Sequence record: PP761450.1
Strand: one strand, 5' to 3'
Length of the DNA stretch: 64,000 bases
Origin: Escherichia phage LHE287
Positions within the stretch are counted from its first letter, which is position 1; the number at the start of each line of letters is the position of its first letter. Of the stretch, positions 14,953-61,632 are shown piece after piece. A program made the position numbers and the translations under genes. The notes beneath the pieces were generated by a model. That model searched no databases and was not told where the DNA came from. It saw only the letters and a list, made by a program, of their open reading frames with translations.

Positions 14953-15066
14953 GATGTAATCTTCCTGTTTCAGTTCAAATGTGCGCCCCGTTTGCTAGGG
15001 CGCTTCGTTTAAGTGAGGTCAATATACGCTGGATTGAGTTATTGAAGAACGAAGTAAAGGAAATCT

Positions 15067-17741: not shown

Positions 17742-18164
17742 CTATTTAGCCTTGCGCGGTTTCGCTTTGGCGTTCAGCTCAGTGCGTCTCATCTTCTCGC
17801 GTATCTCGGCCAGGACTTCCTTCGGCAAGAAACGGACGTACTCCGATGCCTTCTCCATGCTGATGTAGAAGTACTCGGAGAGTAACTTCACGTCAGGATC
17901 AATCGGACCTTTCTTAGACCATTTGTCGTAGCGTTTCCGAGCCGGAATGGTGTAAAAGGCATATGACCATTGCATCCATGGAGTGATAGCATGTAGCTTA
18001 TTCATCTGTTGTGCAGCCACTAGTGTGTCTTTGCTCTGAGCTAAACCACGCCGCGTCATAAACGGGTCGAATCCTTTCAACACTTCTGGGTCATCAGACC
18101 GCAAAAGGTTTTCTTTGCTGCTGTTCAGAGCAGCCAGGTAATCGAACAATCCAAGGGCGGCCAT
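17742..18164 (-). CDS. gp62: clamp loader small subunit (gp62-like)
   Basis: T4-like position after gp44; ARKRYDKWSKK resembles T4 gp62 RGKRYGKWAKL; start trimmed to MAALGLF. Confidence 0.55.
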   Translation of the reverse strand: MAALGLFDYLAALNSSKENLLRSDDPEVLKGFDPFMTRRGLAQSKDTLVAAQQMNKLHAITPWMQWSYAFYTIPARKRYDKWSKKGPIDPDVKLLSEYFYISMEKASEYVRFLPKEVLAEIREKMRRTELNAKAKPRKAK

Positions 18165-18168
18165 AATA

Positions 18169-19158
18169 TCACTTCCACTTGATGTTGAGCATGACATTGG
18201 TCAGGAAAAACACAGCATGCAGCCAGACATCGCCGACTTGACGGTGTTCAATCTGAGACTGACCACACACGCATACCAGATCAGGGATAGACTCATTCTG
18301 AACCAACATTTGCTTCTCTTTATCCTGTGGTACACAGAACTGGAAGAAGCGGGAATAGAAGTCTTCAGTGATATAGTTCTGGTTGTCGGTCACCCACTGC
18401 TTCATCCCAGCCCAGTCATTATCCTTCAACATATTCACCAACATGCCCATATCGGCCGATTTTAACACAGCCAGTGCACGTTCGTCGATCTTGCCGTAAG
18501 TGGTGACGTTATCCTGTAGAACACCCATGATGCGGCGGTTATCAGGGAAATGGCGCTTGACAATAGCAGCCAACACAGGAGGGTCATACTCAACACCTTC
18601 GCAGCGAAGGATTTCAGCACAGCGGCGCATGAACTGAAGTTTTACCTCATCAGCCTCAGCCTCATTCCAGATAAAGTCGATTTCACGGCAACGAGAGCGC
18701 AGAGGTTCGTTCACACGTTGCTTGGCGTTGGTGGTCAAGATGAATGAACAGTTCTTGGAGACCTTCTCCACAATACCCTTCAGCGACTCCTGTGCCGCCA
18801 TAGACAGACGCTCTACTTCGTCGAGGATAACGACTTTGCGGCCACCGAATACGCTCACACCAGTAGAGTACTGAATCACGCGGTCACGGATAACGTCAAT
18901 GCTGTTGTCCAGGGATGCGTTGATCATCAGTGGTTGCTTACAACCGATTTCATTACACACGGCCAGGGCAGAGGTAGTCTTGCCAGTACCAGGCTGAGGA
19001 GAGTAGAACAGCATAGACGGGATGTTGCCGTTGCCGCTGGTGATGTAGCCATGGATTTTAGCGCGGACGTCTTGAGGGATGATAATCTCGTCCAGGTTGT
19101 CAGGGCGATACTTGTTTTCCCATGCGTACTGGTCGGAAACGATAGTGATATTAGACAT
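18169..19158 (-). CDS. gp44: clamp loader large subunit, AAA+ ATPase (gp44-like)
   Basis: ENKYRP...SPQPGTGKTT...ILDEVERL with overall similarity to T4 gp44; start at MSNITIV. Confidence 0.85.
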   Translation of the reverse strand: MSNITIVSDQYAWENKYRPDNLDEIIIPQDVRAKIHGYITSGNGNIPSMLFYSPQPGTGKTTSALAVCNEIGCKQPLMINASLDNSIDVIRDRVIQYSTGVSVFGGRKVVILDEVERLSMAAQESLKGIVEKVSKNCSFILTTNAKQRVNEPLRSRCREIDFIWNEAEADEVKLQFMRRCAEILRCEGVEYDPPVLAAIVKRHFPDNRRIMGVLQDNVTTYGKIDERALAVLKSADMGMLVNMLKDNDWAGMKQWVTDNQNYITEDFYSRFFQFCVPQDKEKQMLVQNESIPDLVCVCGQSQIEHRQVGDVWLHAVFFLTNVMLNIKWK

Positions 19159-19208: not shown

Positions 19209-19238
19209 CACACATTATAGCATCAGGCTGGAGATTGA

Positions 19239-19907
19239 TTACTCAATCTGTGCGCCGACGAAGTAATTGATCGTCGCGTCGGATGATTGGAAGTTCACCA
19301 TCTGTAGATCAGCACAGGCACGCAGAGTGTAGTTGCCTTCGATCATTTTCAGGTTGGCAACATCCAGTGGCATTACGAAGTCCGGCAGCGCGGTTTCGCC
19401 CAGCTCAACAGTGTAGTTGTTGGAGTTGTCTAGGGTAGTGGTGGTTGCAACCAGGCGTGTTTTGCCACCCTGAGCAACCAGACGCACAGTCTTGTGTCCG
19501 AGGGTAGAGCAGGCGCGGGTCAGTTCTTTCATCTTCTCTGGAGTGATGATCGCTTCAAAGTCAACAGACGGCAGTTCAATAGTATCAGCCGGAACAACAG
19601 TGAGTTCTTTAGCAGAACGCCAGAATTGCAGCTGAGAGCTTTCGCCTTTCAACAGGATGTAGTCCTGATGAAATTCGGCTTTGGCACCTTTGAAGGAAGG
19701 TAGGCGCTGGATGGCCAGAAGTTTGGTCAGGTCCAGAATCGGGAACTCAAACGGGAAGTCTTCTTCGATCTGCGCCACGGCGATCACAGTAGAAGAATCA
19801 TTAATACTGCGCAGCATCTTGCCTGGTGTCAGAACGATAGATGGGTTGATGGTCTCAAAGTTGGCCAGCAACTGAAGTGTACGTTCGGAGAGAGTGATCT
19901 CTTGCAT
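19239..19907 (-). CDS. gp45: sliding clamp (gp45-like)
   Basis: 222 aa; LLANFETINPSI resembles T4 gp45 N-terminus LLKNFATINSGI; synteny with 44/62. Confidence 0.8.
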   Translation of the reverse strand: MQEITLSERTLQLLANFETINPSIVLTPGKMLRSINDSSTVIAVAQIEEDFPFEFPILDLTKLLAIQRLPSFKGAKAEFHQDYILLKGESSQLQFWRSAKELTVVPADTIELPSVDFEAIITPEKMKELTRACSTLGHKTVRLVAQGGKTRLVATTTTLDNSNNYTVELGETALPDFVMPLDVANLKMIEGNYTLRACADLQMVNFQSSDATINYFVGAQIE

Positions 19908-22170: not shown

Positions 22171-22177
22171 TATTTAG
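22171..22177 (-). promoter_or_regulatory. late-promoter-like CTAAATA motif
   Basis: Minus strand CTAAATACCCC about 26 nt upstream of helicase start. Confidence 0.4.
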
Positions 22178-24610: not shown

Positions 24611-25339
24611 TTACTTCAGCGCGTTCTTCAGATTATCGGAACCGATGCTGTTGATGACACCTCCGGCGCAGATATCTTTCGCCCACTCTGATATCACGTT
24701 GGCAAAAGAGAAGTTAAGACACTTACCAACCATGTCTTGGATATGGGCTAACTCTGCTGCAATACCGTTCGTGATGTCTTGAGCAATAGAGGCTACTGAT
24801 GCGACAGCAGTGTCGATGGCTTGAGTAACTTCAGCAGCCAGTGCCCGAATAGCATCAAGACCAGCACTGACACCCTGAGCTACCAACTCAGCCAGCTCAT
24901 TCATCTTGTTTGTGATAGTTGTGAGAACACTTTGCATGGTGTTGATCCACTGTTTGCCGAGGTTCTGAATAACCCCAAATGCATTATTGATCAGATCACA
25001 GTTGTTCGGTTCTCGACCTATAGACTTCAGGGCGGACTTATACGACACAGATGTACCGATGCGGGAATATGCCTCGTTCACTGACTGGTCGCCATAGTTG
25101 TTCAAAGTAGTGATGCTGTTGTTGGCTGAGTTGAACATTGCTGTAGATTCGTTGAGTTTGGCTGTAGTCAACCCACCTGCCGTCAGCGCTTCCTGAATCT
25201 GCGCATTTCCGGTGTTAGCCAGTGACGCTGCAGTCGCCTTACCACTGGTGATTAACCCCTGTGAGGCGCTGCTGAGGGACGGGAGAGGATTGGTAAAGGC
25301 GTTGCCCTGTGATAGGGCGTCATAGATCTGTGCGTTCAT
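24611..25339 (-). CDS. hypothetical Ala/Ser-rich protein, possibly virion-associated
   Basis: Start MNAQIYD (25339); CTAAATACCCCC late-type motif upstream. Confidence 0.5.
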   Translation of the reverse strand: MNAQIYDALSQGNAFTNPLPSLSSASQGLITSGKATAASLANTGNAQIQEALTAGGLTTAKLNESTAMFNSANNSITTLNNYGDQSVNEAYSRIGTSVSYKSALKSIGREPNNCDLINNAFGVIQNLGKQWINTMQSVLTTITNKMNELAELVAQGVSAGLDAIRALAAEVTQAIDTAVASVASIAQDITNGIAAELAHIQDMVGKCLNFSFANVISEWAKDICAGGVINSIGSDNLKNALK

Positions 25340-25367
25340 AAGAAAATACCCCCATGGATGATGGGGG

Positions 25368-25374
25368 TATTTAG
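25368..25374 (-). promoter_or_regulatory. late-promoter-like CTAAATA motif
   Basis: CTAAATACCCCC with inverted copy GGGGGTATTT before the ATG at 25339. Confidence 0.45.
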
Positions 25375-25377
25375 GGA

Positions 25378-25548
25378 TCATGGTAGTTTGTAAACGAAGT
25401 TGGACCAGAACTTACGAACAAACTTCTTGACATAAACCATTCGGTTGGCGTATTCCCCATCCTTCAGGTCATTGTAGGTCTCGATCCCTACCGCGCCCAA
25501 GAAGTACGCCGTGAAGATATAGCAGAACAGATTGATGACGACAAACAT
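25378..25548 (-). CDS. small membrane protein
   Basis: MFVVINLFCYIFTAYFLGAVGI transmembrane helix; GGAGAT RBS. Confidence 0.35.
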   Translation of the reverse strand: MFVVINLFCYIFTAYFLGAVGIETYNDLKDGEYANRMVYVKKFVRKFWSNFVYKLP

Positions 25549-25587
25549 GATGTATCTCCGCTGTGTGCTCAAATTATTTATGATATG

Positions 25588-27227: not shown

Positions 27228-27534
27228 GATATAGATCCTTCCTTTCAAAGAATGTTGTGTTCGTCGATATCGGACTGCGTTGCAATCTCCCAGCGGACGA
27301 TGTTCTCGGTTGTGACGAAATCACGGTTCAGGTGAGAGGCTGGCACATACACCATCGTGTCTCGACCATGAAGTAACACTGCTCATTGTTACAAGAATCA
27401 ACGTAAACCTCGATGAGGCACACCTCGGCAACACCGGCTTTCGGCTTCTTCACAGTCTTTTTCAAGTACATGGTACAACCCTCGGATAGTAGACGGGGCA
27501 ATAATACCTCTCACCCCGTTATTGAAATGTTCTT

Positions 27535-30443: not shown

Positions 30444-30526
30444 TCCTTACATTGATATTCAGTTAAGTTGAAATTACTTAGTAGTTCAAAATCAAGCCCC
30501 CTTTTCGAGGGCTGTGGCTGCTAAAA

Positions 30527-31405: not shown

Positions 31406-31412
31406 TATTTAG
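31406..31412 (-). promoter_or_regulatory. late-promoter-like CTAAATA motif
   Basis: 28 nt upstream of the scaffold gene. Confidence 0.45.
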
Positions 31413-34946: not shown

Positions 34947-34953
34947 TATTTAG
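34947..34953 (-). promoter_or_regulatory. late-promoter-like CTAAATA motif
   Basis: 27 nt upstream of the tail tube gene. Confidence 0.45.
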
Positions 34954-35311
34954 TTTTGAAATAAATGGGGGTTAAAATACCCCAAAGTGAGGATATTTAT
35001 TATGTCATTCCCCCGATAAAATTGTTCATGCTACCACAAACCGTTCACCCCAACCAGGAAGGCTGCGTTGTATTGTAGTGACGAATGTAAATCATTCATG
35101 CTGGGAACGATGAAACGCAACTCAGATTTATTGGTCAATCTTCCGGCGACCGAAACTGAATGCCGCTCTTGGGTTGATAGTAAACTCAGGAAGAAAGATG
35201 GTTCGTTGAACTTGGATACGATACAGAAGGAAAACAGAGGATATGCTGGCGATAGAAGCCGGGTTGGGTGTATCTGGGGTGTGGTCTTATCCGGTATGAA
35301 CTGGAAACTAA

Positions 35312-38108: not shown

Positions 38109-38115
38109 TATTTAG
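38109..38115 (-). promoter_or_regulatory. late-promoter-like CTAAATA motif
   Basis: Upstream of the tail sheath gene. Confidence 0.45.
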
Positions 38116-38118
38116 TGA

Positions 38119-40347
38119 TCACCGTCTCAGCCATTCTTCCATAGACACACCAGAGCGTTCATCATAAACCTGAATTCCACCGAACCCTGGGATGTTCTCC
38201 ACAGAGTGAGGATCTGGTGTCGACATCATACCCCCAAATGGTAGCATCTGAGATTCTTCCATCGCAGACAACCGTCCTCTCATGTCCACAGAGATATTTG
38301 AATTGGTGAGATCACTAAACCATTCTTGTTTCACCGCCCATGCATACAACACGAGGGGCATTACACAGTCATCATGACAACCATCATCGGCTTCATACCT
38401 TGTTCCAGTCCATACGAATGTACTGAGTTCATCTATCGTGTCCTGGTCATCTATCACCAGCATTTCACGTTCAATCAGGGCTTTCAGGTTGGCACAGCCG
38501 TTTGTGCGCACCTTCTTGTTGGTATTGATACCAGGCTCAGGGCGGCGACCACCGATTCTCTTGCCTGTACCCTTGGTATCTGTTGTAGTGAAGATGATCT
38601 CGGGATATTCAATTTCCTGGTATAGAATTGTGATTACCTGACCACCCACGTCGTTGTTGGTCTCGACTAGCATCGGGCACGTTCCATACTTCTCACCCAT
38701 ATCGGCGATTGTGTACGCGTACATCATTGGAGGTATCGTGTTATTTCGATACTTGGCTGCGATCTTGTGAGGATAGTCTGTGATGTCGATAATGGTCAGC
38801 ACAGAATAATCCCCTTCGACACCCTTGCCTGTATCTGCGATACCCATATAGATGCGCTTAGGATCGTAGTCGTGATAAATCTTGGTGAACTCGTTCGGCT
38901 CCTGATACAGCTTCGAGGTCATCTTGTCCAGACACTTGGCAGGTATCAGTGATCCCACAGAACCACGGAACTTAATGCCAAATTCTTGATCGAAACGTGC
39001 ATCACCCAGCTTCGCCCTTTGTTTGGATTCCCAGTCTGGATCTTTGGTGTACGTTGGAACACGATACCATGGGACCTCTGTGAGTTTGAAGTCGTTGTAT
39101 TGTGGATGTTCTGGGTTCGCCTTGGTGACGATGTCGTAGAACAACCCGCGCTGACCTTTCGGCGTACTGGTCAGAATACAACGTGAAGTCTCTGCAGATG
39201 CAATCGCCGGGAATGTAGACTCCCAGAATTCAAAGTCGTTTTCAATGAACGCCACTTCGTCCACATACAGGAGCGATACAGATCGACCACGGATGGAGTC
39301 GGAAGATGTCGCATAGGCGTAGATCTTTGATCCGTTTTCGAACTCTATCAGCGTGGAACCGAACTTCTCACAACCCTGTTGGAGGAAGAATGGCAAATCT
39401 TGATATGCTTTGCGAATACGATCTAGGATTTCAATCGCCTGCTTCTCTTTGTTCGCCAGTACTGCGATCTCTTTGTCGGAGTGGAACATCGCATACCAGA
39501 GCAGGAACGCTGCCACGACAGTCGTGTTGTGGCTGAGGAAGCCGTTGGTGTAGTAGCGCTGATCACTAGATTTCACCTGTAGGTCATACATGTGATGCGT
39601 CTCACCAGTCTGCCAAACCTCACGGATTTCTTCTGGACCTTCTGACGTCATGATGTATGACCCAGCATTCAGGTCTTTGGCAAATATCTCCTTCATTTCC
39701 GGAGTGAAGAATATATGTTCGTCGGCCACGTTAATTCGCCGCCCAGTAACAGTCACAATAACGAATTCCGCATATTTCTTCGTCTTATGCGCTGCGATAA
39801 CCGGAACCCAGCCACTATCGGATTGCACAAAGTAACGCTTGCCGAAGCGGCTGTCCACGAACTTGTCATGGTTGCCAATGGTATTCAGCGGCACAGCGTG
39901 GTTGACGTCCTCGAAGCGGCTGTGAAGCTCCCCTATGGTCAGGAGCAACTGCTCTTGGCTGAGAGTATCGTAAACTGTGACAAGCGTGTCACCTTTTACA
40001 CATTTCCCAGACTGACGAGCCTGGACGACCGCATTGAATCGATAGTCCTGGAAGTCATGGAACAACTGCTTCTGGTAATCGTGCATGTCAAAGAGGATGA
40101 AGCCTTTATCGATGGTCGTGATCTTGTAGTAGTTGGCGGCGAAGTAATGGGCGTCCATCGCACACTCGACGAACTCCGATTCTTGTTCGTCGGTTAGCAT
40201 CAACTCCACACGAGGTGCACGCACAGACGGCTTGCGCATGAACGTTTGGTCCATACGCAGTCTGACGTCTTCTGTCTTAAACCCCGTCTTGAGCGGGGCG
40301 TATTCTACATCACGCTTCTGATACGCCATTGTCTTCACCTTCTCCAT
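38119..40347 (-). CDS. gp17: terminase large subunit (gp17-like) interrupted by an in-frame mini-intein
   Basis: Exteins match T4 gp17 around the P-loop (ARQSGK / TTVVAAFLLWYAMF...AIEILDRIRKAYQDLPFFLQQG); 159-aa insertion begins CVKGDTLV and ends NGFLSHN followed by Thr. Confidence 0.85.
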   Translation of the reverse strand: MEKVKTMAYQKRDVEYAPLKTGFKTEDVRLRMDQTFMRKPSVRAPRVELMLTDEQESEFVECAMDAHYFAANYYKITTIDKGFILFDMHDYQKQLFHDFQDYRFNAVVQARQSGKCVKGDTLVTVYDTLSQEQLLLTIGELHSRFEDVNHAVPLNTIGNHDKFVDSRFGKRYFVQSDSGWVPVIAAHKTKKYAEFVIVTVTGRRINVADEHIFFTPEMKEIFAKDLNAGSYIMTSEGPEEIREVWQTGETHHMYDLQVKSSDQRYYTNGFLSHNTTVVAAFLLWYAMFHSDKEIAVLANKEKQAIEILDRIRKAYQDLPFFLQQGCEKFGSTLIEFENGSKIYAYATSSDSIRGRSVSLLYVDEVAFIENDFEFWESTFPAIASAETSRCILTSTPKGQRGLFYDIVTKANPEHPQYNDFKLTEVPWYRVPTYTKDPDWESKQRAKLGDARFDQEFGIKFRGSVGSLIPAKCLDKMTSKLYQEPNEFTKIYHDYDPKRIYMGIADTGKGVEGDYSVLTIIDITDYPHKIAAKYRNNTIPPMMYAYTIADMGEKYGTCPMLVETNNDVGGQVITILYQEIEYPEIIFTTTDTKGTGKRIGGRRPEPGINTNKKVRTNGCANLKALIEREMLVIDDQDTIDELSTFVWTGTRYEADDGCHDDCVMPLVLYAWAVKQEWFSDLTNSNISVDMRGRLSAMEESQMLPFGGMMSTPDPHSVENIPGFGGIQVYDERSGVSMEEWLRR
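39526..40002 (-). other. mini-intein coding segment within the terminase large subunit gene
   Basis: N-terminal Cys codon at 40000-40002, C-terminal His-Asn at 39526-39531, +1 Thr; YDLQV...NGFLSHN block; no endonuclease domain (159 aa). Confidence 0.75.
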
Positions 40348-42362: not shown

Positions 42363-42385
42363 ATCGATACCCTCAATTTTGAAGG

Positions 42386-42392
42386 TATTTAG
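42386..42392 (-). promoter_or_regulatory. late-promoter-like CTAAATA motif
   Basis: 24 nt upstream of the gp14-position gene. Confidence 0.45.
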
Positions 42393-48896: not shown

Positions 48897-48903
48897 TATT
48901 TAG
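48897..48903 (-). promoter_or_regulatory. late-promoter-like CTAAATA motif
   Basis: 35 nt upstream of the 1612-aa gene. Confidence 0.45.
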
Positions 48904-49508: not shown

Positions 49509-51482
49509 TCAAACAACCTGAATTATTCCTTGCACATTAGTGATGTTTGTGCCAGCAATGGCAATAGTCATCCTGTTGTTCTCATCATATGTGATAGTCA
49601 TGGGTTTAGCGCCAGATGGTTGCATTAGACCAAAGCTACCAAATAACGTACCACATGCATTTATTGGAGTTCCATTATCAGTAACCAGCAGGTTAATGTG
49701 AACTATATTATATGGGCTACGTACCACCTGAGTGGTAATGGTGGCTCTTGCCGGGTCGCTGGTGTTGACAGTACAGAACGGAACGCTATTACTTGGCAGT
49801 ACTGTGCTAATAGTTTGCCCCGTATATCTCTTAGGGGCTGTACTGCTTTGGCGTAAATTTCGCGCAATAACAGCCCCTGATGAATCCGTGAGTGTTTCAA
49901 TGCGCTTAATCTCCACTCCTTGTCCAACGAGATAGTTACCAGGTATCGAACTGCCATTCTGAATGGTGCTTACGTAATCCTCAATCTCAATGATGAATGT
50001 CTTCTCACCACTACGACCAGTGACTGCAAAATCACCACGCCAGTTAGTTCCTGATGGATGTGCTCCATCCTTAAAGTTGCATGATTTATCAATCCCACCT
50101 GATAAAACAGTTGACGCTTCCAGATGAATCATTTGCCAATGTAAATATGAATTTCTGATATAAAGCCTTTCAACTATTGCTGAAGGATCAACTCGTATCC
50201 CTATTGTGTTTTTCTCAAAGTACCAGTTATGTAATTCAAGGTTTTGAATATTTCCTGAATCAGAACCATAAATATCCACACCACGGACACCATTTTCAGC
50301 TGTGCAAGAATCAAAACAATCTGCTGAGCTAAGACCGGTTATCTTCCAGTTAGTATGGAAACCAGACGCTACGCATTTACGAACGCCCATTGCCTGGATA
50401 TTTGATTCAATCTGGAATGCTATAGACCCATCAGCGCCTGCCGGAGGACTCATTGCGGAGATTTCCTCAATGGTTCCATAGAAGCTGTCTTTAACTATAA
50501 CTGGGTAACGCGTCGCAGTGATGCGAGTGTCCTTGATTGCACTCCCATAAATCATCTGGTACATCTTGTAAGCAGAACCGGCAAATCTGATGCGCCCACC
50601 ACCAATACGCATATCAGGAACAAGGCCAATTGAGCCAACTGAACTAGCAGGAACTGACCAGTTTGATTTAAGTTCCCCTGCATCCCAATAAGCTGACTCA
50701 AAAATAGTGTTTGTGCCAACTACGCCTTGGCTACCATTCCCTTCTATGACTGCGTGGTTTAAATCTATTGAAACTCCACCTGGAACCAGAATTGTCCCCA
50801 TTATTTTAACTACAGATTTTCTAGGCAGCTTTAACTTGATCATCGAGCCGTTTGCTTCTGTTATTGCACTTTGTATTGCGGCAGTGTCATCAGCAACACC
50901 ATTGCATTTAGCACCCCATCCTCTGATGTCACCTTCATCTCGCCATCTTGCAATCTGTAGTGCTGGGTATAGAGATGCACCATTAGGATTTGATATTTGA
51001 TTTCTTAATACAATATCTCCAACACTAACCCACTTACCTAAACCAACGCCACCAGTACTCTCTGGGGTTGAGCCAGCAGAAACGATTTTAGGTAATTCAC
51101 CATCCCAGCGATACTTACCATCAGCAAAGACAACCAGTTCATTCTTAACATTAACGGTTACTCCGGTAGAGAATGACCCAGGTAAAGTCACATACTCTTC
51201 ACGAGTGACAGCTAATTCACCCAAGTCCACATTACCAGCAGAGTGAACTAATACCCCAGCAGGGCTGAGACTTACAGCAGTAACCCCTGAGTCAATACTG
51301 GTTGGTAATGAGTAAGCACGCTGGGTAGTCTTATCATAAATAACTTTGTAACCACCCAAGTCCACACCCACAGCAAAGTAGACTACTTCATTTTGCTTGA
51401 CACCAAACTTACGGGCAATGGCTTGTTTGTTGGTAAGAATACCAGTGGAGCCTTTACCACCTTGTGAGAATAACTCGTTCAT
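49509..51482 (-). CDS. tail spike protein (right-handed beta-helix type)
   Basis: 657 aa; N-terminal module shared with the 1183-aa spike; Asn/Gly-rich repetitive C-terminal domain. Confidence 0.65.
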   Translation of the reverse strand: MNELFSQGGKGSTGILTNKQAIARKFGVKQNEVVYFAVGVDLGGYKVIYDKTTQRAYSLPTSIDSGVTAVSLSPAGVLVHSAGNVDLGELAVTREEYVTLPGSFSTGVTVNVKNELVVFADGKYRWDGELPKIVSAGSTPESTGGVGLGKWVSVGDIVLRNQISNPNGASLYPALQIARWRDEGDIRGWGAKCNGVADDTAAIQSAITEANGSMIKLKLPRKSVVKIMGTILVPGGVSIDLNHAVIEGNGSQGVVGTNTIFESAYWDAGELKSNWSVPASSVGSIGLVPDMRIGGGRIRFAGSAYKMYQMIYGSAIKDTRITATRYPVIVKDSFYGTIEEISAMSPPAGADGSIAFQIESNIQAMGVRKCVASGFHTNWKITGLSSADCFDSCTAENGVRGVDIYGSDSGNIQNLELHNWYFEKNTIGIRVDPSAIVERLYIRNSYLHWQMIHLEASTVLSGGIDKSCNFKDGAHPSGTNWRGDFAVTGRSGEKTFIIEIEDYVSTIQNGSSIPGNYLVGQGVEIKRIETLTDSSGAVIARNLRQSSTAPKRYTGQTISTVLPSNSVPFCTVNTSDPARATITTQVVRSPYNIVHINLLVTDNGTPINACGTLFGSFGLMQPSGAKPMTITYDENNRMTIAIAGTNITNVQGIIQVV

Positions 51483-51506
51483 ATAAACCTCATTGTTTTT
51501 CTAGAA

Positions 51507-51525
51507 AACCCCTCCGAAGAGGGGT
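51507..51525 (-). terminator. UUCG-loop terminator
   Basis: aacccctc-cgaag-aggggt followed on the minus strand by TTTCTAG. Confidence 0.55.
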
Positions 51526-51533
51526 GGATTAAT

Positions 51534-53771
51534 TTAACGCTTAAGTGCTACTACCTGAGAATCAGTAGTAATTTCGAAATAGAATGTACCCGCAGCAGAG
51601 CCAATTGGGGTAGCAATGAGTTCGTTGGAAGAACCAATTGACCAGGTAAAGCTAGGTGTTCCTGCTACATTACCTGACACGTAACCAAGCTGCTTAATTA
51701 ACTCACACTCTTTGCCCGTATCTGCACCGGAACAAACTAGTAGTTTATAAATAGCAACACGACGAGTAGCTGTAGAGGGTGGGTTAACACTGGCGACTAT
51801 AGTTACTTCACCGGCAAACGACTCAGTGCTTGAGTCAGAATTATTACCGTGACCCTGGGTACTTCTCAGGTTACATACTGCTACCGGTCCTGATACGCCA
51901 GACTTCTGTGTATAAAGTGTATGGTGTACCCAATCAATATAACCACCATTACGAGATTGCCAACCATTCGGTAGAACACAGTTATCTACAATAACTACAG
52001 TTTCATTACCATCAGCAATAATATCTGGGGTTGTGCCAATACTGGCGTGGGCTGTACTATCCGCTATTCGAACACGGTTGATAGTATTCTGTGCACTAAT
52101 TGCATGAAGCAGGTTTGCATGAGTACCTGAACCGTTGTTGTGACAGAAGGCTCCATGAATAGCAATACTTCTGTTTTCCCCCAAGCTGGAGGATGCTTCA
52201 ACCATAATGCCAGCACCTTTATTACTCTCAGCACCGGGAGCAACCATAACAAAACCTTCTGACTTGGCAATAGCATACCCATGCCCAGCATTCTGATCAG
52301 ATGCTGGAGTAATGGCAGCAGAGTAGTTCATAAATCCGAATCGCCAGCCATTGCCACCGTTCTTCAACTGATACCCTGCAAGGGTTGTAGTGCTGGTTTT
52401 CTGTGCTGTTATTGAGAAGTGGACACCATTACCAGTACATTGGTCAGCAAGAACTTGGTTATAGACGTTAACCCAGCTATTACCTATATACACACCATCC
52501 GATGTAGCAGTGGATACTCTAAGGTTATCAATTGATGTACGGGAAGCAGTTTCAACACGTAACCCGTTGTATCCACCTTTGGTTCCTAAGTCCTTTAGCT
52601 TGAAGCCTTGAACATATTTACCGCTTGGTAGATTAGTATTTAAGATTGCACTTCCTGCTGGGAAACCAGAAGCAGCAACAAGAAGAGTGCTACCCTTACC
52701 TGAACCGGAGATTAAGTATTCATCCCCTGTATCATCTTCACCTGCTGGAACACGGTCAAACACTATTGGGGTATCTAGAGACATTTGTCTACGTGGAAGA
52801 TTGAGACGCCCCCCTATTTTATAGGTTGTGTTCTGCGAACGGAGGAAATCTAATCCAGCGTTAATCTGAATACCCACATCTGAACCAGAAAAGTCATCCA
52901 TAGACAAGGTACGGTCAGTGAGGTCTTCCAGCATTCCCCCAACAGTTCCTTTATTGTATGTTTCTGCTGGGTCATACCCAATCTCACCTGCACCATTAGA
53001 TGCAGACAGATTCTCATAAGAATCCGGAGTAGGAACCAGGTCTACTGTAATATTTCCCGGAGAGTAGGTTAACTGACCACCTGAGACAGACTTAATATAT
53101 ACGTTAGTAGGTAGGTTAGGTAAACCGTAAGCCTTCTGCTCACTAACAGAGAATACTACCTTCTTACCATTAAGAAACTGAGAAGTATCCGTGCTGAGAA
53201 TTACTTCAGAGTCTTTTACGTTAGCAGCACGAGCGATTTCTTGAATACTTCGGTCAAACAACAGACCGATATTCGATTGTTTAACAGACATTTCAGCGAC
53301 TACCCAAACGCCTGCAGTCAGCGCAGTTTGTAAAGACACTTTCCCTGTCGTTCTGTCATAGGAATATTCAATTTCGGGTGTTTTGTACTCACCACCGATA
53401 TAAAGAGATTGGACTCCATAAGATGTGTAATCAGGAGTGAACTCGGTTTCACCTCCTATAGCCTGAAACTTATAGATTCGAATCCCGGTTTTATAATCTT
53501 CTGGAGACAAAATCTTATCAAACAGGCAGAACACAACGTCACCTTTGGATAATGCACGCCCGAGATTCAACGTATTTCCATCGATTTCAAAGTTGTCTAA
53601 CGGAACTTGCATGCCACCGTTGATTGTGACTATACCAGTGACAGGGTAGAAAGGGAGGGAGATAAACTTCTCTCCGCCCGTTGCTGTGTAAGTGTATGGA
53701 ATCTGGTGTGGAGCTGTTACGACCGCTCCAAAGATGCTCTCGACGTTTCTGGTCATTTGAAGATACCCCAT
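51534..53771 (-). CDS. tail spike protein (beta-helix type)
   Basis: 745 aa; late motif CTAAATACCCC upstream; start could alternatively be 53756. Confidence 0.65.
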   Translation of the reverse strand: MGYLQMTRNVESIFGAVVTAPHQIPYTYTATGGEKFISLPFYPVTGIVTINGGMQVPLDNFEIDGNTLNLGRALSKGDVVFCLFDKILSPEDYKTGIRIYKFQAIGGETEFTPDYTSYGVQSLYIGGEYKTPEIEYSYDRTTGKVSLQTALTAGVWVVAEMSVKQSNIGLLFDRSIQEIARAANVKDSEVILSTDTSQFLNGKKVVFSVSEQKAYGLPNLPTNVYIKSVSGGQLTYSPGNITVDLVPTPDSYENLSASNGAGEIGYDPAETYNKGTVGGMLEDLTDRTLSMDDFSGSDVGIQINAGLDFLRSQNTTYKIGGRLNLPRRQMSLDTPIVFDRVPAGEDDTGDEYLISGSGKGSTLLVAASGFPAGSAILNTNLPSGKYVQGFKLKDLGTKGGYNGLRVETASRTSIDNLRVSTATSDGVYIGNSWVNVYNQVLADQCTGNGVHFSITAQKTSTTTLAGYQLKNGGNGWRFGFMNYSAAITPASDQNAGHGYAIAKSEGFVMVAPGAESNKGAGIMVEASSSLGENRSIAIHGAFCHNNGSGTHANLLHAISAQNTINRVRIADSTAHASIGTTPDIIADGNETVVIVDNCVLPNGWQSRNGGYIDWVHHTLYTQKSGVSGPVAVCNLRSTQGHGNNSDSSTESFAGEVTIVASVNPPSTATRRVAIYKLLVCSGADTGKECELIKQLGYVSGNVAGTPSFTWSIGSSNELIATPIGSAAGTFYFEITTDSQVVALKR

Positions 53772-53791
53772 AAAGGATGTCCAATATGGGG

Positions 53792-53798
53792 TATTTAG
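53792..53798 (-). promoter_or_regulatory. late-promoter-like CTAAATA motif
   Basis: CTAAATACCCCATA with inverted copy TATGGGGTAT before the start. Confidence 0.45.
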
Positions 53799-53835
53799 GC
53801 TGAACTAATAAATTTATGAACAAAGGTATAATAAG

Positions 53836-53855
53836 AACCCCGCCAAAGCGGGGTT
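53836..53855 (-). terminator. hairpin terminator
   Basis: aaccccgcc-aaa-gcggggtt. Confidence 0.5.
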
Positions 53856-53859
53856 GGTT

Positions 53860-56800
53860 TTATGTATAAGATGTCTCTGATATGGATATCGCCACTGTTT
53901 TAGACCGCGATGGTGTGCTTCTGTTTACAAAATACACGGTGTGTGTTACCCCCATATCCGCATTTAGTTGGTAGTACTCAGCCCCATAAGGTACTCTGTA
54001 ACTCAGAGGGTGCACAGCAGAAGCTGTTAATGCGCCTGAGTAATTGGGTGCGGACGGTTTTGCGTTCAGGAAGTTATACCATATGGACACTCCGGATACA
54101 GAACCGGTATTGGGCGCTACGCAACTCTTGTCTATGATGCCAGTGTAGATGTTGGCAACCGCGCCGCATTGAACAAGAACAGAACCAACGCCTTTAAGGA
54201 TGGCTCCTTTAAGGTACGCTGGATAGTTACTTGACATGCACGCAATCGTGCAAGACACAAAAGTATCATTTATTGACTCTAAGCCACGGGTGTTATTGTT
54301 TATAGACGTAGACTTGACGAGATAGGCGCAGTCCACATCGTTGAACACATTTGACTCAATATCTAATCTAAAGTTTGTAGATATAGTCACACATGCAACC
54401 ATAACCCCTAAATGAATGTTTCTGAATTTACAATTTTTAATGCTTACACTACGTGTACCCTGTACGTAACCAAAAACTCCAGCAACACCCCCGTTTATTA
54501 GCGCGGTTACTGTACTAGGGAGGTACAGGTCCGCTGTTTTTGTGAAATCTACTAAAGAAGTATAATCAATAGCGGCCCTGCTCTCGTTATAGTAGAACTC
54601 ACAGTCATCAAGATAAATTCTTTGCGTCGGGGCGGACACGAAACCAGCCCAACCGAACGGTTTGGAACCTGTATCATATAAATTAACACAACCAGACGAA
54701 GGAGTGCCAGCACCCCCTACGTAGTAAAACTTATTCCTGCGTAGGTCTACTGTGTAGCTTACCGTATTCTCTATCCCGGCAGATAATCTAATAGTGTTGT
54801 CAGTAAATTGGTTAAAAATAACCCCCAGATTCGTCAAACTGTAACACTCTATGTTGTTATTGGAGATAATATTACCTTTGTTAAAAGCGTAGTCCCCAAT
54901 ACCATGTCGGGCATTTACTTTGTTACCGGTAGCCACGTTGTAATCACAATGAGTGTGGAAGATAAGCCCCCAGTGATATCCTGAAGTAGCTTCTCCATTG
55001 ATTACATTACCAGTAAATACGTTACGGCAGCAGTTCTTAAAGACGATTAGCACTGCATCTTTAATTACCTCTGGAGTAACAAAGCTGTTATTAGAGAAGG
55101 AGTTATGATAACAGTTCCAGGACAACATGAAGGTGTACCCAATATCCAGCGTGTTATTCTCAACCTTGTTAAAGTTAGAGAAGTAACTAATCTCTGGATA
55201 ATTTAAACGACCAGTGCAGTTAGAAATACCACCTCCATAGTTCCTACGGAATCGTAAAACGCCGTCGGTATCTGCCGTACCAGTATTTTCATCTATAAAA
55301 TGGATATTTCTAAAGTGTGCGTGGTTTACCTCGGAGTACACAATAGCGGTAGCTCCAGGAGCAGAAAAGTTGGGCGTTATATCGAGATACGCACGACTAT
55401 TTATGCTGTCATATTTAATCACCTTGAACAGGCAGGAGCGAAGCGTTCCAAAATTGGCGTCATCCTTTGATAGCGACATTATATCTATGGTGTTTGCCGT
55501 AGCAGTTTCTGCGGCCATAACATAGTCAGTTTTACCGTTGGTGATTTCCAGGTATTTCCCTGTCAGGTCCACAGAAGAACTAACCCACGGTTGGTTGTAA
55601 ACTAAATTTACACTCTGTGTGGTGGAAGTGGATGGGCTTGTAAAGAATATTTTTGCACCATCAGCTATTCTAAGAGATGCTTTTATCCTTGCTTTGAATT
55701 CTCCAATACCAAGAGGTAGGGTTATGCTAGTGGCAATGTATGTCGTAGTATAGTCCGGCAGGATGACATATTTAAGGTCGTTAGCCATAGCCTCGATAGC
55801 TGCGGAATCGTCAGTGATGCCGTCGCAAACCGCTCCGTAATCAAGTATGGTTTTCAATTGCTCTAACTGCTCAGCAATAGTCCTGCTAACTGTTCCATCC
55901 CCTTTATTTTTGTTTCCTATGATACTAGCTCCAGAGTTCGAAGCCAGATCGCTTCTTAAGGAAGTATCCCCAACACTAATCCACGCGCCCGAACCTTCCC
56001 CACCAGTTGTCGAAGGGGTTGAACCAGCAGAAACTTCTTTAGGTAATGCACCATCCCAACGGTACTTGCCATCAGTAAAGACAACCAGTTCATTCTTGGT
56101 ATTAACTGTTACACCGGTATCAAATGACCCGGACAATGTGACGTACTCTTCACGAGATACAGCCAATTCCCCGAGATCTACAGAACCCGCTGAATGTACA
56201 AGTACAGCGGAAGAACTAAGACTGACAGCAGTAGTACCAGGGACAATATCAGCAGGCAAGGGATAAGCCCTTTGCGTCTCCTTGTCATAAATAACTTTAT
56301 ACCCACTTAACGCAGCACCAACACTAAAATAAACGACCTCTGTATCTTTAACATTGGTCACACGAGCAACTTCCCGCAAAGTATAATCAATTTGATTATA
56401 GATGTTTGGTGTTCCATTGATAATTACAACAACTTCATCCTCCGGTTCCAGTTCTTGCGCAAGAGTGATTTTACTGGTTAATGGATCGAATGTGAATCCC
56501 AGATTTTTATACTGGCGACTTCCGTTTATATCAATGGCCGGAACATCATCAACAACGACGTCCAACGTGATTTCGGTTTCACCACCAATCGCTGAACCCC
56601 CATTATAGACCCAAGTAATCGTAGAAGAACTAGAACCACCGCCATTACCCAATTGAATAGGAGTATATTCAATCACCTGAAGTTCTGTGTTAGCTGGCAA
56701 AGAAGGACTGAAAGTGATTACATTCCCATCTAGTGAATATTTAGATTCCGCAAGACGTTTCCCATCAGCATACACGTCCACGATTGTTGGTGGAGTATTG

Positions 56801-57411: not shown

Positions 57412-57448
57412 TTCAAATACCCCTAAATGTGTTCGTTTCATCTAGGGG

Positions 57449-57455
57449 TATTTAG
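57449..57455 (-). promoter_or_regulatory. late-promoter-like CTAAATA motif
   Basis: CTAAATACCCCTA with inverted copy TAGGGGTATTT before the start at 57411. Confidence 0.45.
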
Positions 57456-61307: not shown

Positions 61308-61314
61308 TATTTAG
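61308..61314 (-). promoter_or_regulatory. late-promoter-like CTAAATA motif
   Basis: 41 nt upstream of the gp6-like gene. Confidence 0.45.
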
Positions 61315-61632
61315 CCAACGGGAATCAAAACGCTCGCGCGCGTTTAATTTATTCGAATATAACTCGCGAGGGGGCTGACGCCCTCGCTCGTAACACCGCC
61401 CTATGCGGGCAGCACCATTCCACAGCCATGGAGGCTGCTTCTCGTTGTTCGTTGACACTCACAACTCGAAGGGCACTGCGTTAGGATACAGTTTCTTGAT
61501 GTTGTAGAAAAGTAGTTTTTACCTATTAATAATCACTGTCATTATTTTATTGGTCATTCCTGTGTTTATATTCAATAAACATACTCCCAATATAATAACG
61601 GAGACATTTAATCAATCCAGTGAGGCTCCGGA

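What the first reader, a model, noticed from the sequence alone, without database searches (positions are those of the whole stretch)
25340..25375. Late-promoter-like CTAAATA(CCCC) motif upstream of 10 genes, in three cases paired with an inverted copy next to the start codon
Every instance of minus-strand CTAAATA found here lies 20-45 nt upstream of a structural or late gene start, resembling the T4-type late promoter core. At three genes (starts 25339, 53771/53756, 57411) the extended motif AAATACCCC is followed 9-16 nt later by its reverse complement GGGGTATTT placed just before the ATG. That arrangement suggests either a dimeric protein-binding palindrome or a 5'-UTR structure masking the ribosome binding site.
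Basis: seen in the sequence. Interest (0 to 1): 0.5.

Follow-up and report, generated by a model that had tools for sequence, protein, structure and literature searches.

The report
Late promoters buried in RBS-masking hairpins
In this ViI-like (Ackermannviridae) phage, some late promoters lie in one arm of a hairpin whose other arm holds the ribosome binding site, so probably only RNA started at that promoter is translated, as is already known for phage T4.

Summary
The window is an Ackermannviridae (Agtrevirus-like) phage, 99% identical to Escherichia phage RPN242. CTAAATA occurs 13 times, all on the minus strand. Eleven copies lie 30-49 nt before start codons of late genes and two are intragenic. 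The motif is already published as CTAAATAcCcc.

The palindromes are real:
- a 12-bp stem at 25344-25372;
- a 16-bp stem at 57414-57454;
- a 10-bp stem at 53763-53794.

In each, the 3' arm carries the Shine-Dalgarno-like G-run and ends 2-6 nt before the ATG. RNA coming from upstream folds at -17 to -21 kcal/mol. RNA started about 6 nt after TAAATA does not fold.

In whole-genome scans of RPN242 and CBA120, 8-11 of about 28 late promoters per genome have this layout. They include the endolysin and the Holliday-junction resolvase, the functional analogues of T4 genes e and 49.

Loop lengths vary from 4 to 17 nt. The arms covary (CCCC/GGGG, CCUC/GAGG, UCCUC/GAGGA) and use G·U wobbles. This supports an RNA hairpin and argues against a protein-binding operator.

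Best reading: a T4-type mask of the ribosome binding site, with a possible partial terminator role, bypassed by an embedded late promoter. It is a new member of a known kind. No transcript mapping exists.

The parts
25368..25374 (-). CTAAATA late-promoter core in front of the 242-aa DUF7217 gene (start 25339)
   Evidence: The orthologous site reads CTAAATA, TTTAAATA, TTAAATA, TATAAATA or ATAAATA in other genera.
25344..25372 (-). Hairpin. 5' arm 25372-25361 (AAATACCCCCAT), loop 25360-25356, 3' arm 25355-25344 (ATGGGGGTATTT). The 3' arm holds the SD-like GGGGG at 25353-25349. ATG at 25339.
   Evidence: 12 bp, 100% complementary (I17). RNA from upstream folds at -19.5 kcal/mol (z -3.9, 61-nt segment) or -17.2 (promoter-to-ATG segment). 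The predicted late RNA folds at -5.7 (z -0.6). Conserved in five genera.
57449..57455 (-). CTAAATA late-promoter core of the TSP4-type tailspike gene (start 57411), 2 nt after the stop codon of the upstream gene
57414..57454 (-). Hairpin. 5' arm 57454-57439, loop 57438-57430, 3' arm 57429-57414. The 3' arm holds GGGG at 57423-57420. ATG at 57411.
   Evidence: I5. -21.0 kcal/mol, z -6.6, against -1.2 for the predicted late RNA. Conserved in Kuttervirus and Limestonevirus with different loops.
53792..53798 (-). CTAAATA late-promoter core of the TSP2-type tailspike gene (start 53756)
53763..53794 (-). Hairpin. 5' arm 53794-53785 (ATACCCCATA), 3' arm 53772-53763 (TATGGGGTAT). GGGG at 53769-53766. 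ATG at 53756.
   Evidence: I11. -19.3 kcal/mol, z -3.5. The block from CTAAATA to the ATG stays conserved where the upstream flank is unrelated (L163-L169).
42367..42392 (-). CTAAATA (42392-42386) plus a weaker hairpin, 42388-42380 / 42375-42367 (AUACCUUCA / UGAGGGUAU, with one U·G), before the neck-protein gene (start 42362)
   Evidence: -11.4 kcal/mol, z -2.7; -10.2 against -2.2 for the late RNA. The same layout is present in CBA120. Pfam T4_neck-protein.
61308..61314 (-). CTAAATA before the gp6-type baseplate wedge gene (start 61267). AUCUUCA pairs weakly with the SD region UGGAGAU.
   Evidence: -11.6 against -3.7. Identical in CBA120.
22171..22177 (-). CTAAATACCCC before uvsW (start 22145). 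The palindrome is degenerate (CCCCA / UGGGAG).
   Evidence: -7.4 kcal/mol, z +0.55, not significant; helicase.
48897..48903 (-). Plain CTAAATA promoter, no strong hairpin, before the 1612-aa VriC-like gene (start 48862)
38109..38115 (-). Plain CTAAATA promoter before the tail sheath gene (start 38066)
34947..34953 (-). Plain CTAAATA promoter before the tail tube gene (start 34920)
   Evidence: 0 kcal/mol.
31406..31412 (-). Plain CTAAATA promoter before the prohead core gene (start 31378)
17743..17749 (-). Plain CTAAATA before the RegA-like translational repressor gene (start 17712)
53836..53855 (-). Canonical intrinsic terminator (AACCCCGCTTTGGCGGGGTT + T-rich tail) between the TSP4 stop and the TSP2 promoter-hairpin
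   Evidence: It shows that the TSP2 hairpin is not needed as the terminator of the upstream gene.
27501..27526 (-). Early-type promoter candidate (TTCAATAACGGGGTGAGAGGTATTAT, one mismatch to the published TTCAAT-N14-TATAAT). It heads the small-gene cluster that runs into the gene at 25339.

Best explanation
CTAAATA, more generally [C/T/A]TAAATA, is the -10-type box of the phage's gp55-dependent late promoters. This step is inferred from the motif's position, its similarity to the T4 box and the presence of the late-transcription genes.

At a subset of late genes the box and the 5-10 nt after it form the 5' arm of an RNA hairpin. In the window these genes are the DUF7217 gene (start 25339), tailspike TSP4 (57411) and tailspike TSP2 (53756), with weaker versions at the neck gene, the gp6 wedge gene and uvsW. 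The 3' arm of each hairpin contains the Shine-Dalgarno-like G-run and ends 2-6 nt before the AUG at the three main sites (0-6 nt across all the sites tabulated). The pairing, and selection acting on it, are shown by the sequence comparisons.

RNA that enters from upstream (early, middle or upstream late transcripts) contains both arms. It folds and hides the ribosome binding site. At the site with a good U-tract (25344-25372) it may also partly terminate. RNA started at the embedded promoter begins about 6 nt after TAAATA, inside the hairpin. It lacks the 5' arm and is translated freely. These two steps are inferred from geometry and from the T4 precedent.

Translation of these genes is therefore tied to firing of their own late promoter. 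On this reading the 'cCcc' tail of the published motif CTAAATAcCcc is the anti-Shine-Dalgarno arm, not a promoter determinant.
For: 1. Promoter.
   - All 13 CTAAATA copies are on the coding strand, and 11 lie 30-49 nt before start codons.
   - The window (or its 99% relative RPN242) encodes the sliding clamp gp45. RPN242 and CBA120 also carry an annotated late sigma factor and late co-activator. One search reports gp55, gp33 and gp45 homologues in CBA120, ViI and AG3.
   - The T4 late promoter is an 8-bp TATA box about one helical turn upstream of the start site.
2. Energetics.
   - Read-through RNA folds at -19.5, -21.0 and -19.3 kcal/mol (z -3.9, -6.6, -3.5).
   - RNA starting about 6 nt after TAAATA folds at -5.7, -1.2 and -6.2 (z near 0).
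3. Generality.
   - Among 28 (RPN242) and 27 (CBA120) predicted late promoters, 8 per genome fold at -12 kcal/mol or below, and about 11 at -9 or below. The structure is always lost in the predicted late RNA.
4. Specificity.
   - Swapping the promoter-proximal 18 nt among sites raises the mean energy from -8.5 to -4.9 (RPN242) and from -8.7 to -4.5 (CBA120).
   - 0 of 2000 permutations reach the native mean in either genome.
5. Covariation among sites and between orthologues.
   - CCCC/GGGG, CCUC/GAGG (endolysin), UCCUC/GAGGA (the 55-aa gene gp187).
   - CCCAUAAC/GUUAUGGG against GCCCAUA/UAUGGGC: the resolvase site has an extra G-C pair in both arms.
   - U-A changes to C-G, and C-G changes to U·G, at the Serratia phage Kevin orthologue.
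   - Several G·U wobbles occur. These work in RNA only.
6. The 5' arm starts at the promoter box in every case tabulated. The 3' arm ends 2-6 nt before the AUG at most sites (extremes -2 to 6 in the table).
7. Gene set.
   - It includes the endolysin and the RuvC-like resolvase. These are functional analogues of T4 e and 49, for which this exact mechanism is documented.
   - Identical arms precede a phage lysozyme, a resolvase-like protein, two homing endonucleases and a head-tail adaptor in unrelated viral contigs.
8. T4 late promoters are AT-rich just downstream of the box. CCCC is therefore atypical for promoter function. It is absent from the promoters of the sheath, tube and prohead-core genes.
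9. A source of read-through RNA exists upstream of the 25339 gene: an early-type promoter at 27501-27526, with co-directional genes up to 5 nt before the hairpin.
Against: - No transcript 5' ends have been mapped for any Ackermannviridae phage in the searchable literature. The start site about 6 nt after the box is borrowed from T4.
- The two tailspike sites lie in a late region. The TSP2 site is already preceded by a canonical terminator, so the amount of read-through RNA to be masked there may be small.
- The 25344-25372 hairpin looks like a usable intrinsic terminator (UAUUUUCUU tail). Its orthologue in Klebsiella phage May is annotated as a terminator.
- At two of the three sites the upstream stop codon lies 2-5 nt before the 5' arm. 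Terminating ribosomes could open the hairpin and couple translation rather than block it.
- Arms are almost invariant among orthologues at the tailspike sites. Most covariation comes from comparing different sites, which are not strictly homologous.
- The SD is a G-run (GGGG), not canonical GGAGG.
Confidence: 0.6

Rival explanations
1. The hairpins are mainly intrinsic terminators for the upstream gene. The A-rich promoter box serves as the A-tract and its complement as the U-tract. The promoter simply restarts transcription. The position of the SD inside the stem is a side effect of very short intergenic spaces.
For: - The 25344-25372 hairpin has a GC core followed by UAUUUUCUU.
- The orthologous element in Klebsiella phage May is annotated 'terminator', with the RBS inside it.
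- Elsewhere in the RPN242 genome late promoters do overlap true terminators, for example CCCCCTAAATACAGGGGGATTTCTTTTT.
- In other viral contigs the same arms are followed by T5-7.
Against: - The simple terminator scan flags none of the three window hairpins, while it flags the phage's canonical GC-rich tetraloop terminators.
- The tailspike hairpins have 9-14-nt loops and interrupted U-tracts (UAUUUGAA, UAUCUUCA).
- A canonical terminator already stands 40 nt upstream of the TSP2 promoter-hairpin.
- Where the phage does combine a terminator with a promoter (RPN242 gp084), the SD lies downstream and free. SD-in-stem is therefore a separate design.
- The arm sequence follows the SD sequence (GAGG, GAGGA, GAGGG). 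A terminator has no need for that.
Confidence: 0.17
2. The complementarity has no function of its own. Late promoters are followed by pyrimidine-rich DNA and ribosome binding sites are purine-rich, so they pair by accident.
For: Even the 'plain' promoters have pyrimidine runs after the box (TCTTC, TCTCT, TCTTTC) that pair weakly with GGAG or GAAGGA.
Against: - The pairing extends through AAAUA/UAUUU and into 3-8 further bases on the loop side. Perfect stems reach 12-16 bp.
- The permutation test gives 0 of 2000.
- Spacers between the SD and the AUG are UAUUU-like only at the hairpin sites.
- Compensatory changes occur between orthologues.
Confidence: 0.07
3. The palindrome is a DNA operator for a dimeric regulator. 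Alternatively, the inverted copy is a second late promoter firing the other way.
For: - Inverted TAAATA copies that are real divergent promoters do exist elsewhere in the genome (RPN242 gp029/gp030 and gp056/gp057).
- T4 I-TevI binds an operator that overlaps its own late promoter.
Against: - Arm spacing varies from 4 to 17 nt between sites, and between orthologues of one site.
- Symmetry is kept through G·U wobbles, which are mismatches in DNA.
- On the plus strand the 3' arms read GAAAATA, CAAATA and AGATA. They lack the invariant T of TAAATA, and no plus-strand gene lies there.
Confidence: 0.05
4. The hairpin is a translational-coupling device. On polycistronic RNA, a ribosome terminating at the adjacent upstream stop codon melts the 5' arm and hands over to the downstream gene. 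Translation from read-through RNA is then coupled to the upstream gene, not blocked.
For: - Upstream stop codons lie 2 nt (57458-57460) and 5 nt (25378-25380) before the 5' arm.
- In RPN242 the stop of gp169 lies 6 nt before the gp170 promoter.
Against: - At TSP2 the upstream stop is about 63 nt away, with a terminator in between.
- At the neck gene it is about 270 nt away.
- This idea does not explain why the promoter must be inside the arm.
Confidence: 0.08

Closest known systems
T4 gene e (lysozyme), soc, 49 and I-TevI/II/III, segB and Aeh1 mobE: an inhibitory leader hairpin with an embedded late promoter
   Same: - A stable helix sequesters the Shine-Dalgarno sequence and/or the AUG on transcripts that come from upstream.
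[quoted passage not shown]
- The gene classes match. In RPN242 and CBA120 the endolysin and the Holliday-junction resolvase carry the element.
   Different: - The box is [C/T/A]TAAATA, not TATAAATA.
- The promoter box itself is base-paired. AAAUA pairs with a UAUUU spacer between the SD and the AUG.
- The arm next to the box is CCCC-like, whereas T4 is AT-rich there.
- The element is also used at structural genes inside the late region (three tailspikes, neck, wedge), where the source of read-through RNA is less obvious.
- Nothing has been tested experimentally.
Published Ackermannviridae ('Viunalikevirus') regulatory motif CTAAATAcCcc
   Same: It is the same sequence. It is listed as one of 'two unique regulatory motifs' of these phages together with TTCAAT-N14-TATAAT. 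From memory, the original description is Adriaenssens et al. 2012, Arch Virol; that paper is not in the searchable library.
   Different: - The accessible literature gives only the motif. It gives no transcript mapping and does not mention the inverted copy, the hairpin or the link to the ribosome binding site.
- The core here is CTAAATA. The 'cCcc' tail is present only where a complementary G-run precedes the start codon.
Intrinsic (Rho-independent) terminators with an A-tract and a U-tract
   Same: A GC core flanked by AAAUA and UAUUU(U). One orthologue is annotated as a terminator.
   Different: - The GC core is short (4-5 bp).
- Loops reach 9-14 nt at the tailspike sites.
- U-tracts are interrupted.
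- The element always encloses the SD and always begins at a promoter box.
- It is not flagged by the terminator scan.

Membership tests
T4-type gp55-dependent late promoter | A TATAAATA-like box as the only conserved element, with no -35 element | tested here: met
   [C/T/A]TAAATA matches 6-8 of the 8 positions of the T4 box: 8 of 8 for the TATAAATA variants seen at some sites, 6 of 8 for CTAAATA after A, C or G. At the TSP2 site conservation begins exactly at CTAAATA while the upstream flank is unrelated. T4 definition.
T4-type gp55-dependent late promoter | The genome encodes gp55 (late sigma), gp33 (co-activator) and gp45 (sliding clamp) | tested here: met
   By annotation only. RPN242 gp095 sigma factor, gp060 late-transcription coactivator, gp126 sliding clamp. 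The sliding-clamp gene maps to window 19239-19907. CBA120 orf120, orf084, orf163. states the same.
T4-type gp55-dependent late promoter | Located just upstream of late (virion, lysis) genes, on the coding strand | tested here: met
   11 of 13 copies lie 30-49 nt before starts of the wedge, tailspike, VriC-like, neck, sheath, tube and prohead core genes and others. P about 4e-20.
T4-type gp55-dependent late promoter | Transcripts start about one helical turn after the centre of the box, late in infection, and depend on gp55 | not testable with these tools
   No transcript-start data for any Ackermannviridae phage were found.
T4 e/49/I-TevI-type RBS-sequestering hairpin with embedded late promoter | A stable RNA helix encloses the Shine-Dalgarno sequence and/or the AUG | tested here: met
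   -19 to -21 kcal/mol, z -3.5 to -6.6. The G-run lies inside the 3' arm, which ends 2-6 nt before the AUG at the three main sites.
T4 e/49/I-TevI-type RBS-sequestering hairpin with embedded late promoter | The late promoter is positioned so that its own transcript lacks the 5' strand of the helix | tested here: met
   This is met by geometry. The 5' arm spans the box and the next 5-10 nt. RNA modelled from 6 nt after the box folds at 0 to -6 kcal/mol. The start site is assumed from T4.
T4 e/49/I-TevI-type RBS-sequestering hairpin with embedded late promoter | The pairing, not the sequence, is under selection | tested here: met
   Permutation test 0 of 2000 in two genomes. Compensatory and wobble changes occur among sites and between orthologues. 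Loops vary while arms pair.
T4 e/49/I-TevI-type RBS-sequestering hairpin with embedded late promoter | Earlier transcripts from upstream read into the gene | tested here: inconclusive
   Genes are co-directional up to 2-5 nt before two of the hairpins, and an early-type promoter lies at 27501-27526. A canonical terminator precedes the TSP2 site. There are no RNA data.
T4 e/49/I-TevI-type RBS-sequestering hairpin with embedded late promoter | Translation from long transcripts is inhibited, and is relieved by deleting the 5' strand | not testable with these tools
   Needs reporter fusions or toeprinting.
Intrinsic terminator | A GC-rich stem with a short loop, followed at once by a U-run | tested here: not met
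   None of the three hairpins passes the scan that detects the window's canonical terminators. The 25344-25372 element comes closest (UAUUUUCUU after the GC core), and its orthologue is annotated as a terminator.
Palindromic operator of a dimeric DNA-binding protein | Fixed spacing and DNA-level symmetry of the half-sites | tested here: not met
   Spacing ranges from 4 to 17 nt. Symmetry is kept through G·U pairs.

The most novel reading that the evidence does not exclude
The 'cCcc' tail of the family-wide signature motif is not part of the promoter. It is an anti-Shine-Dalgarno arm. Each tailspike (host-range) gene travels as a self-contained cassette. The cassette consists of the late promoter, the hairpin mask and the N-terminal anchor domain, and it is conserved from CTAAATA onward even when the upstream DNA is unrelated. 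The hairpin would then insulate a newly acquired tailspike gene from whatever transcription enters from its new neighbours. That would make modular exchange of host-range genes among Ackermannviridae safe.
Probability: 0.25. Interest if true: 0.5.

Novelty: new member of a known kind. Interest (0 to 1): 0.35.

Why it matters
- It gives a mechanistic reading of a motif that Ackermannviridae genome papers list without explanation.
- It predicts where late transcripts start at about 28 promoters per genome.
- It identifies roughly ten genes per genome (endolysin, resolvase, three tailspikes, neck and others) whose translation is probably locked to their own late promoter.
- People who engineer these phages, for example by swapping tailspikes or inserting reporters, should keep the block from CTAAATA to the ATG intact. 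Otherwise they risk silent or mistimed genes.
- It extends the T4 e/49/I-TevI paradigm to a distant branch of the T4 superfamily and to structural genes.
- The mechanism itself is not new.

Tried and rejected
- Second promoter on the other strand. Rejected: the 3' arms read GAAAATA, CAAATA and AGATA on the plus strand and no gene lies there. Real divergent promoter pairs exist elsewhere and look different.
- Dimeric protein operator. Rejected on variable spacing and G·U pairs.
- Rfam. No family matches anywhere in the window.
- Literature. No transcription-start or RNA-seq study of any Ackermannviridae phage was found. The 2024 family review contains none of the words promoter, transcription or motif. 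The tailspike papers do not discuss the intergenic palindromes. Kutter 2011 states that the late promoter was then unidentified.
- IMG/VR pattern scan (TAAATACCCC-N3-25-GGGGTATTT). It returned many unrelated contigs and ordinary symmetric terminators. Because it demands the arms, it cannot measure conservation. It is used only to show that the same layout precedes lysozyme, resolvase, homing-endonuclease and adaptor genes elsewhere.
- The first literature search, on CTAAATA plus 'late promoter', mostly returned poxvirus papers.
- Raw genome-wide enrichment of CTAAATA is modest: 20 copies in 155 kb of RPN242. The signal lies in strand and position, not in count.
Full report
**What the window is.** A 3-kb stretch around the finding is 99.1% identical to Escherichia phage vB_EcoM-RPN242 (Ackermannviridae, Aglimvirinae). 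It has 270 matches among ViI-like phages of Salmonella, Klebsiella, Escherichia, Dickeya, Shigella and Serratia. Nearly all genes in the window run on the minus strand. They include replication and recombination genes (clamp, clamp loader, RegA-like repressor, UvsW, UvsY). They also include the main virion module: capsid, portal, tube, sheath, terminase, neck, a VriC-like giant protein, three tailspikes and baseplate wedge.

**Check of the observation.**
- CTAAATA occurs 13 times, always on the minus strand, against 4.5 expected.
- AAATACCCC occurs 8 times against 0.2 expected.
- Eleven CTAAATA copies lie 30-49 nt before the start codons at 61267, 57411, 53756, 48862, 42362, 38066, 34920, 31378, 25339, 22145 and 17712.
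- Two copies are intragenic: 56744 lies inside the tailspike gene and 42352 lies 10 nt inside the neck gene. The statement that every instance precedes a gene is therefore too strong.
- With about 75 genes in the window, the chance that at least 11 of 13 hits fall in that 20-nt slot is about 4e-20.
- The three palindromes are confirmed independently (I17, I5, I11).
The spacing between the 9-mers is 11, 21 and 18 nt. The third site reads GGGGTATCT, not GGGGTATTT.

**What is already known.**
- The string CTAAATAcCcc is listed, together with TTCAAT-N14-TATAAT, as one of 'two unique regulatory motifs' of these phages in the EspM4VN genome paper.
- Kutter et al. 2011 noted gp55, gp33 and gp45 homologues in CBA120, ViI and AG3 but said the late promoter sequence was not yet identified.
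- The LIMEstone paper predicted 33 late promoters by similarity to T4.
- I found no transcript-start mapping for any member of the family. The 2024 family review does not mention promoters at all.
- The motif is therefore known. Its inverted copy is not discussed in anything I could read.

**Anatomy of the palindromes.**
- In each case the 5' arm begins inside the box (AAATA) and continues through CCCC plus 2-7 further bases.
- The 3' arm is the exact or near-exact complement. It contains the only Shine-Dalgarno-like element of the gene (GGGG or GGGGG, 7-9 nt before the ATG) and ends 2-6 nt before the ATG.
- As RNA the three elements fold at -19.5, -21.0 and -19.3 kcal/mol (z -3.9, -6.6, -3.5).
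- T4 late promoters are an 8-bp TATA box about one helical turn upstream of the start site. A transcript started about 6 nt after TAAATA would lack the 5' arm. Such RNAs fold at only -5.7, -1.2 and -6.2 kcal/mol, no better than shuffles.
- On the plus strand the 3' arms read GAAAATA, CAAATA and AGATA, so they are not second promoters.

**Generality within the family.** I assembled the complete genomes of RPN242 and of CBA120, a Kuttervirus from the other subfamily.
- Each genome has 27-28 [C/T/A]TAAATA boxes 29-50 nt before annotated starts.
- In each genome 8 of them fold at -12 kcal/mol or below, and about 11 at -9 or below. The same loss of structure is seen in the predicted late RNA.
- The genes with the hairpin are:
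  - the endolysin;
  - the RuvC-like Holliday-junction resolvase;
  - the DUF7217 gene (window start 25339);
  - the gp14-like neck protein (42362);
  - tailspikes TSP2, TSP3 and TSP4 (53756 and 57411 in the window);
  - the gp6 wedge gene (61267, weak);
  - two small genes near the DNA polymerase and thymidine-modification region;
  - uvsW (22145), weakly.
- Promoters of the sheath, tube, prohead-core and VriC-like genes have no such hairpin.
- When the promoter-proximal 18 nt are swapped among sites, the mean energy rises from -8.5 to -4.9 (RPN242) and from -8.7 to -4.5 (CBA120). None of 2000 permutations reaches the native mean in either genome. The complementarity is therefore specific to each promoter and its own ribosome binding site.

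**RNA or DNA, structure or sequence.**
- Arm spacing ranges from 4 to 17 nt between sites. It also differs between orthologues of one site: the loops are CATCC, CATAC, TCAAT, AAAATT and AACACT at the DUF7217 gene.
- The arm follows the Shine-Dalgarno sequence of the gene:
  - CCCC/GGGG at most sites;
  - CCUC/GAGG at the endolysin;
  - UCCUC/GAGGA at the 55-aa gene;
  - CCUUC/GAGGG with a U·G pair at the neck gene.
- The resolvase site has an extra G-C pair in both arms in RPN242 relative to CBA120.
- The Miltonvirus orthologue of the 25344-25372 hairpin (Serratia phage Kevin) changes U-A to C-G and C-G to U·G while keeping the helix.
- G·U pairs occur in several stems. They are mismatches in duplex DNA.
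- All this argues for a selected RNA helix and against a dimeric protein operator.
- T4 late promoters are AT-rich just after the box. The CCCC is therefore unlikely to serve the promoter. It appears only where a complementary G-run precedes the start codon. I conclude that the 'cCcc' of the published motif is most likely the anti-Shine-Dalgarno arm.

**Mechanism.** The layout is the one documented for T4 genes e, soc, 49 and I-TevI, and proposed for I-TevII, I-TevIII, segB and Aeh1 mobE.
- In T4, long transcripts fold and hide the ribosome binding site.
- A late promoter lying in the DNA for the 5' strand makes a shorter RNA that cannot fold and is translated.
- The Ackermannviridae endolysin and resolvase carry the element, and they are the functional counterparts of T4 e and 49. 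This is the strongest circumstantial support.
- The same arms precede a phage lysozyme (Pfam E 6e-50), a RusA-like resolvase family member, two homing endonucleases and a head-tail adaptor in unrelated viral contigs, often with a perfect TATAAATA.
- For the window's DUF7217 gene there is a plausible source of long RNA. An early-type promoter lies at 27501-27526, and co-directional small genes run to 5 nt before the hairpin.

**What is shown and what is inferred.**
- Shown: motif position and strand bias; the helices and their stability; their specificity; their conservation in five genera; covariation; the position of the SD in the 3' arm.
- Inferred: that the box is the gp55 promoter; that transcripts start about 6 nt after it; that long RNAs exist and are translationally silent.

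**Terminator question.**
- The 25344-25372 hairpin has a fair U-tract (UAUUUUCUU). Its Taipeivirus orthologue is annotated as a terminator with the RBS inside it. Partial termination is therefore plausible at that site, and it would act in the same direction as masking.
- The two tailspike hairpins have 9-14-nt loops and interrupted U-tracts. They are not flagged by the scan that finds the phage's canonical terminators.
- The TSP2 site is already preceded by such a terminator at 53836-53855.
- The genome also has a separate design in which the promoter lies in the loop of a true terminator and the SD lies free downstream (RPN242 gp084).
- I therefore treat termination as a secondary, site-dependent role.

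**Open points.**
- In the late region it is unclear how much read-through RNA there is to mask.
- Upstream stop codons 2-5 nt before two of the hairpins could allow ribosome-mediated unmasking, that is, translational coupling.
- At the TSP2 and TSP3 sites a conserved near-box (ATAAATT, window 53811-53817) lies 13 nt upstream of CTAAATA. If it were active, it would produce a masked transcript.
- The block from CTAAATA to the ATG stays conserved where the upstream DNA is unrelated. This suggests that tailspike genes move together with their own promoter-hairpin.

**Verdict.** The motif is a known, predicted late promoter. The palindromes are real, non-random and conserved. They are best explained as T4-type RBS-sequestering hairpins bypassed by an embedded late promoter. 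This is a new member of a known kind and has not been tested experimentally.

Noticed in passing
window 51508-51525 and 30495-30513 (minus strand): The third tailspike gene (start 51482) and the major capsid gene (start 30443) are each preceded by a canonical terminator hairpin and have no TAAATA box of their own. It is unclear how they are transcribed. A TTAAATTA overlaps the stop codon of the upstream tailspike gene at 51529-51536.
   Followed up: partly
window 34975-35000 (minus strand): This is an orphan module: ATAAATA followed by AAATATCC...GGGGTATTT, with no start codon after it. It lies about 40 nt upstream of the real tail-tube promoter (34947-34953). In RPN242 a GIY-YIG homing endonuclease gene occupies this place, so it may be the leftover leader of a lost cassette.
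   Followed up: partly
window 53811-53817 (minus strand): ATAAATT, one base off a late box, lies between the terminator and the TSP2 promoter. It is conserved before TSP2 and TSP3 in RPN242 and in Kuttervirus contigs. If active, its transcript would contain the whole hairpin.
   Followed up: no
window 25381-25548, with an ATAAATA box at 25575-25581 (minus strand): This is a 56-aa ORF (phrog_4845) with a hydrophobic N-terminal half and its own ATAAATA box. It ends 5 nt before the hairpin of the next gene.
   Followed up: no
window 27501-27526, 15021-15046, 19214-19239 (minus strand); 61571-61596 (plus strand): The published early-type motif TTCAAT-N14-TATAAT is enriched: 18 matches with up to 2 mismatches against 4.9 expected. 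Four matches have 0-1 mismatch.
   Followed up: partly
RPN242 record 57673-57720 and 62660-62700 (outside the window; L133): Here late boxes lie in the loop of GC hairpins followed by T-runs (CCCCCTAAATACAGGGGGATTTCTTTTT and GGGCACTAAATACCACGTGCCCTTTATCTTTT). This is a terminator-plus-promoter design that leaves the SD free.
   Followed up: partly
RPN242 record 19101-19152 and 39082-39136 (outside the window; L132): These are divergent late genes (head completion / tail tube cap; DNA end protector / gp54-like). Their promoters are inverted copies of each other and face each other, so the two transcripts would overlap at their 5' ends.
   Followed up: no
window 49509-57411: The window has three tailspike genes (1183, 740 and 657 aa). 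The 99%-identical RPN242 has four. This is the only large difference between the two genomes in the window.
   Followed up: partly
window 24611-25339: The gene behind the flagged hairpin is Pfam DUF7217. It matches only the C-terminal half of PHROG 289 ('GTP-binding domain'). Its orthologues are annotated 'structural protein' in some Salmonella phages.
   Followed up: partly
L013, L015, L019, L037, L121, L124 (IMG/VR contigs): In viral contigs unrelated to the window, identical arms (TAAATACCCC...GGGGTATTT, then T2-5 and ATG) precede a phage lysozyme, a resolvase-family protein, two homing endonucleases and a head-tail adaptor. Some of these have a perfect TATAAATA.
   Followed up: partly
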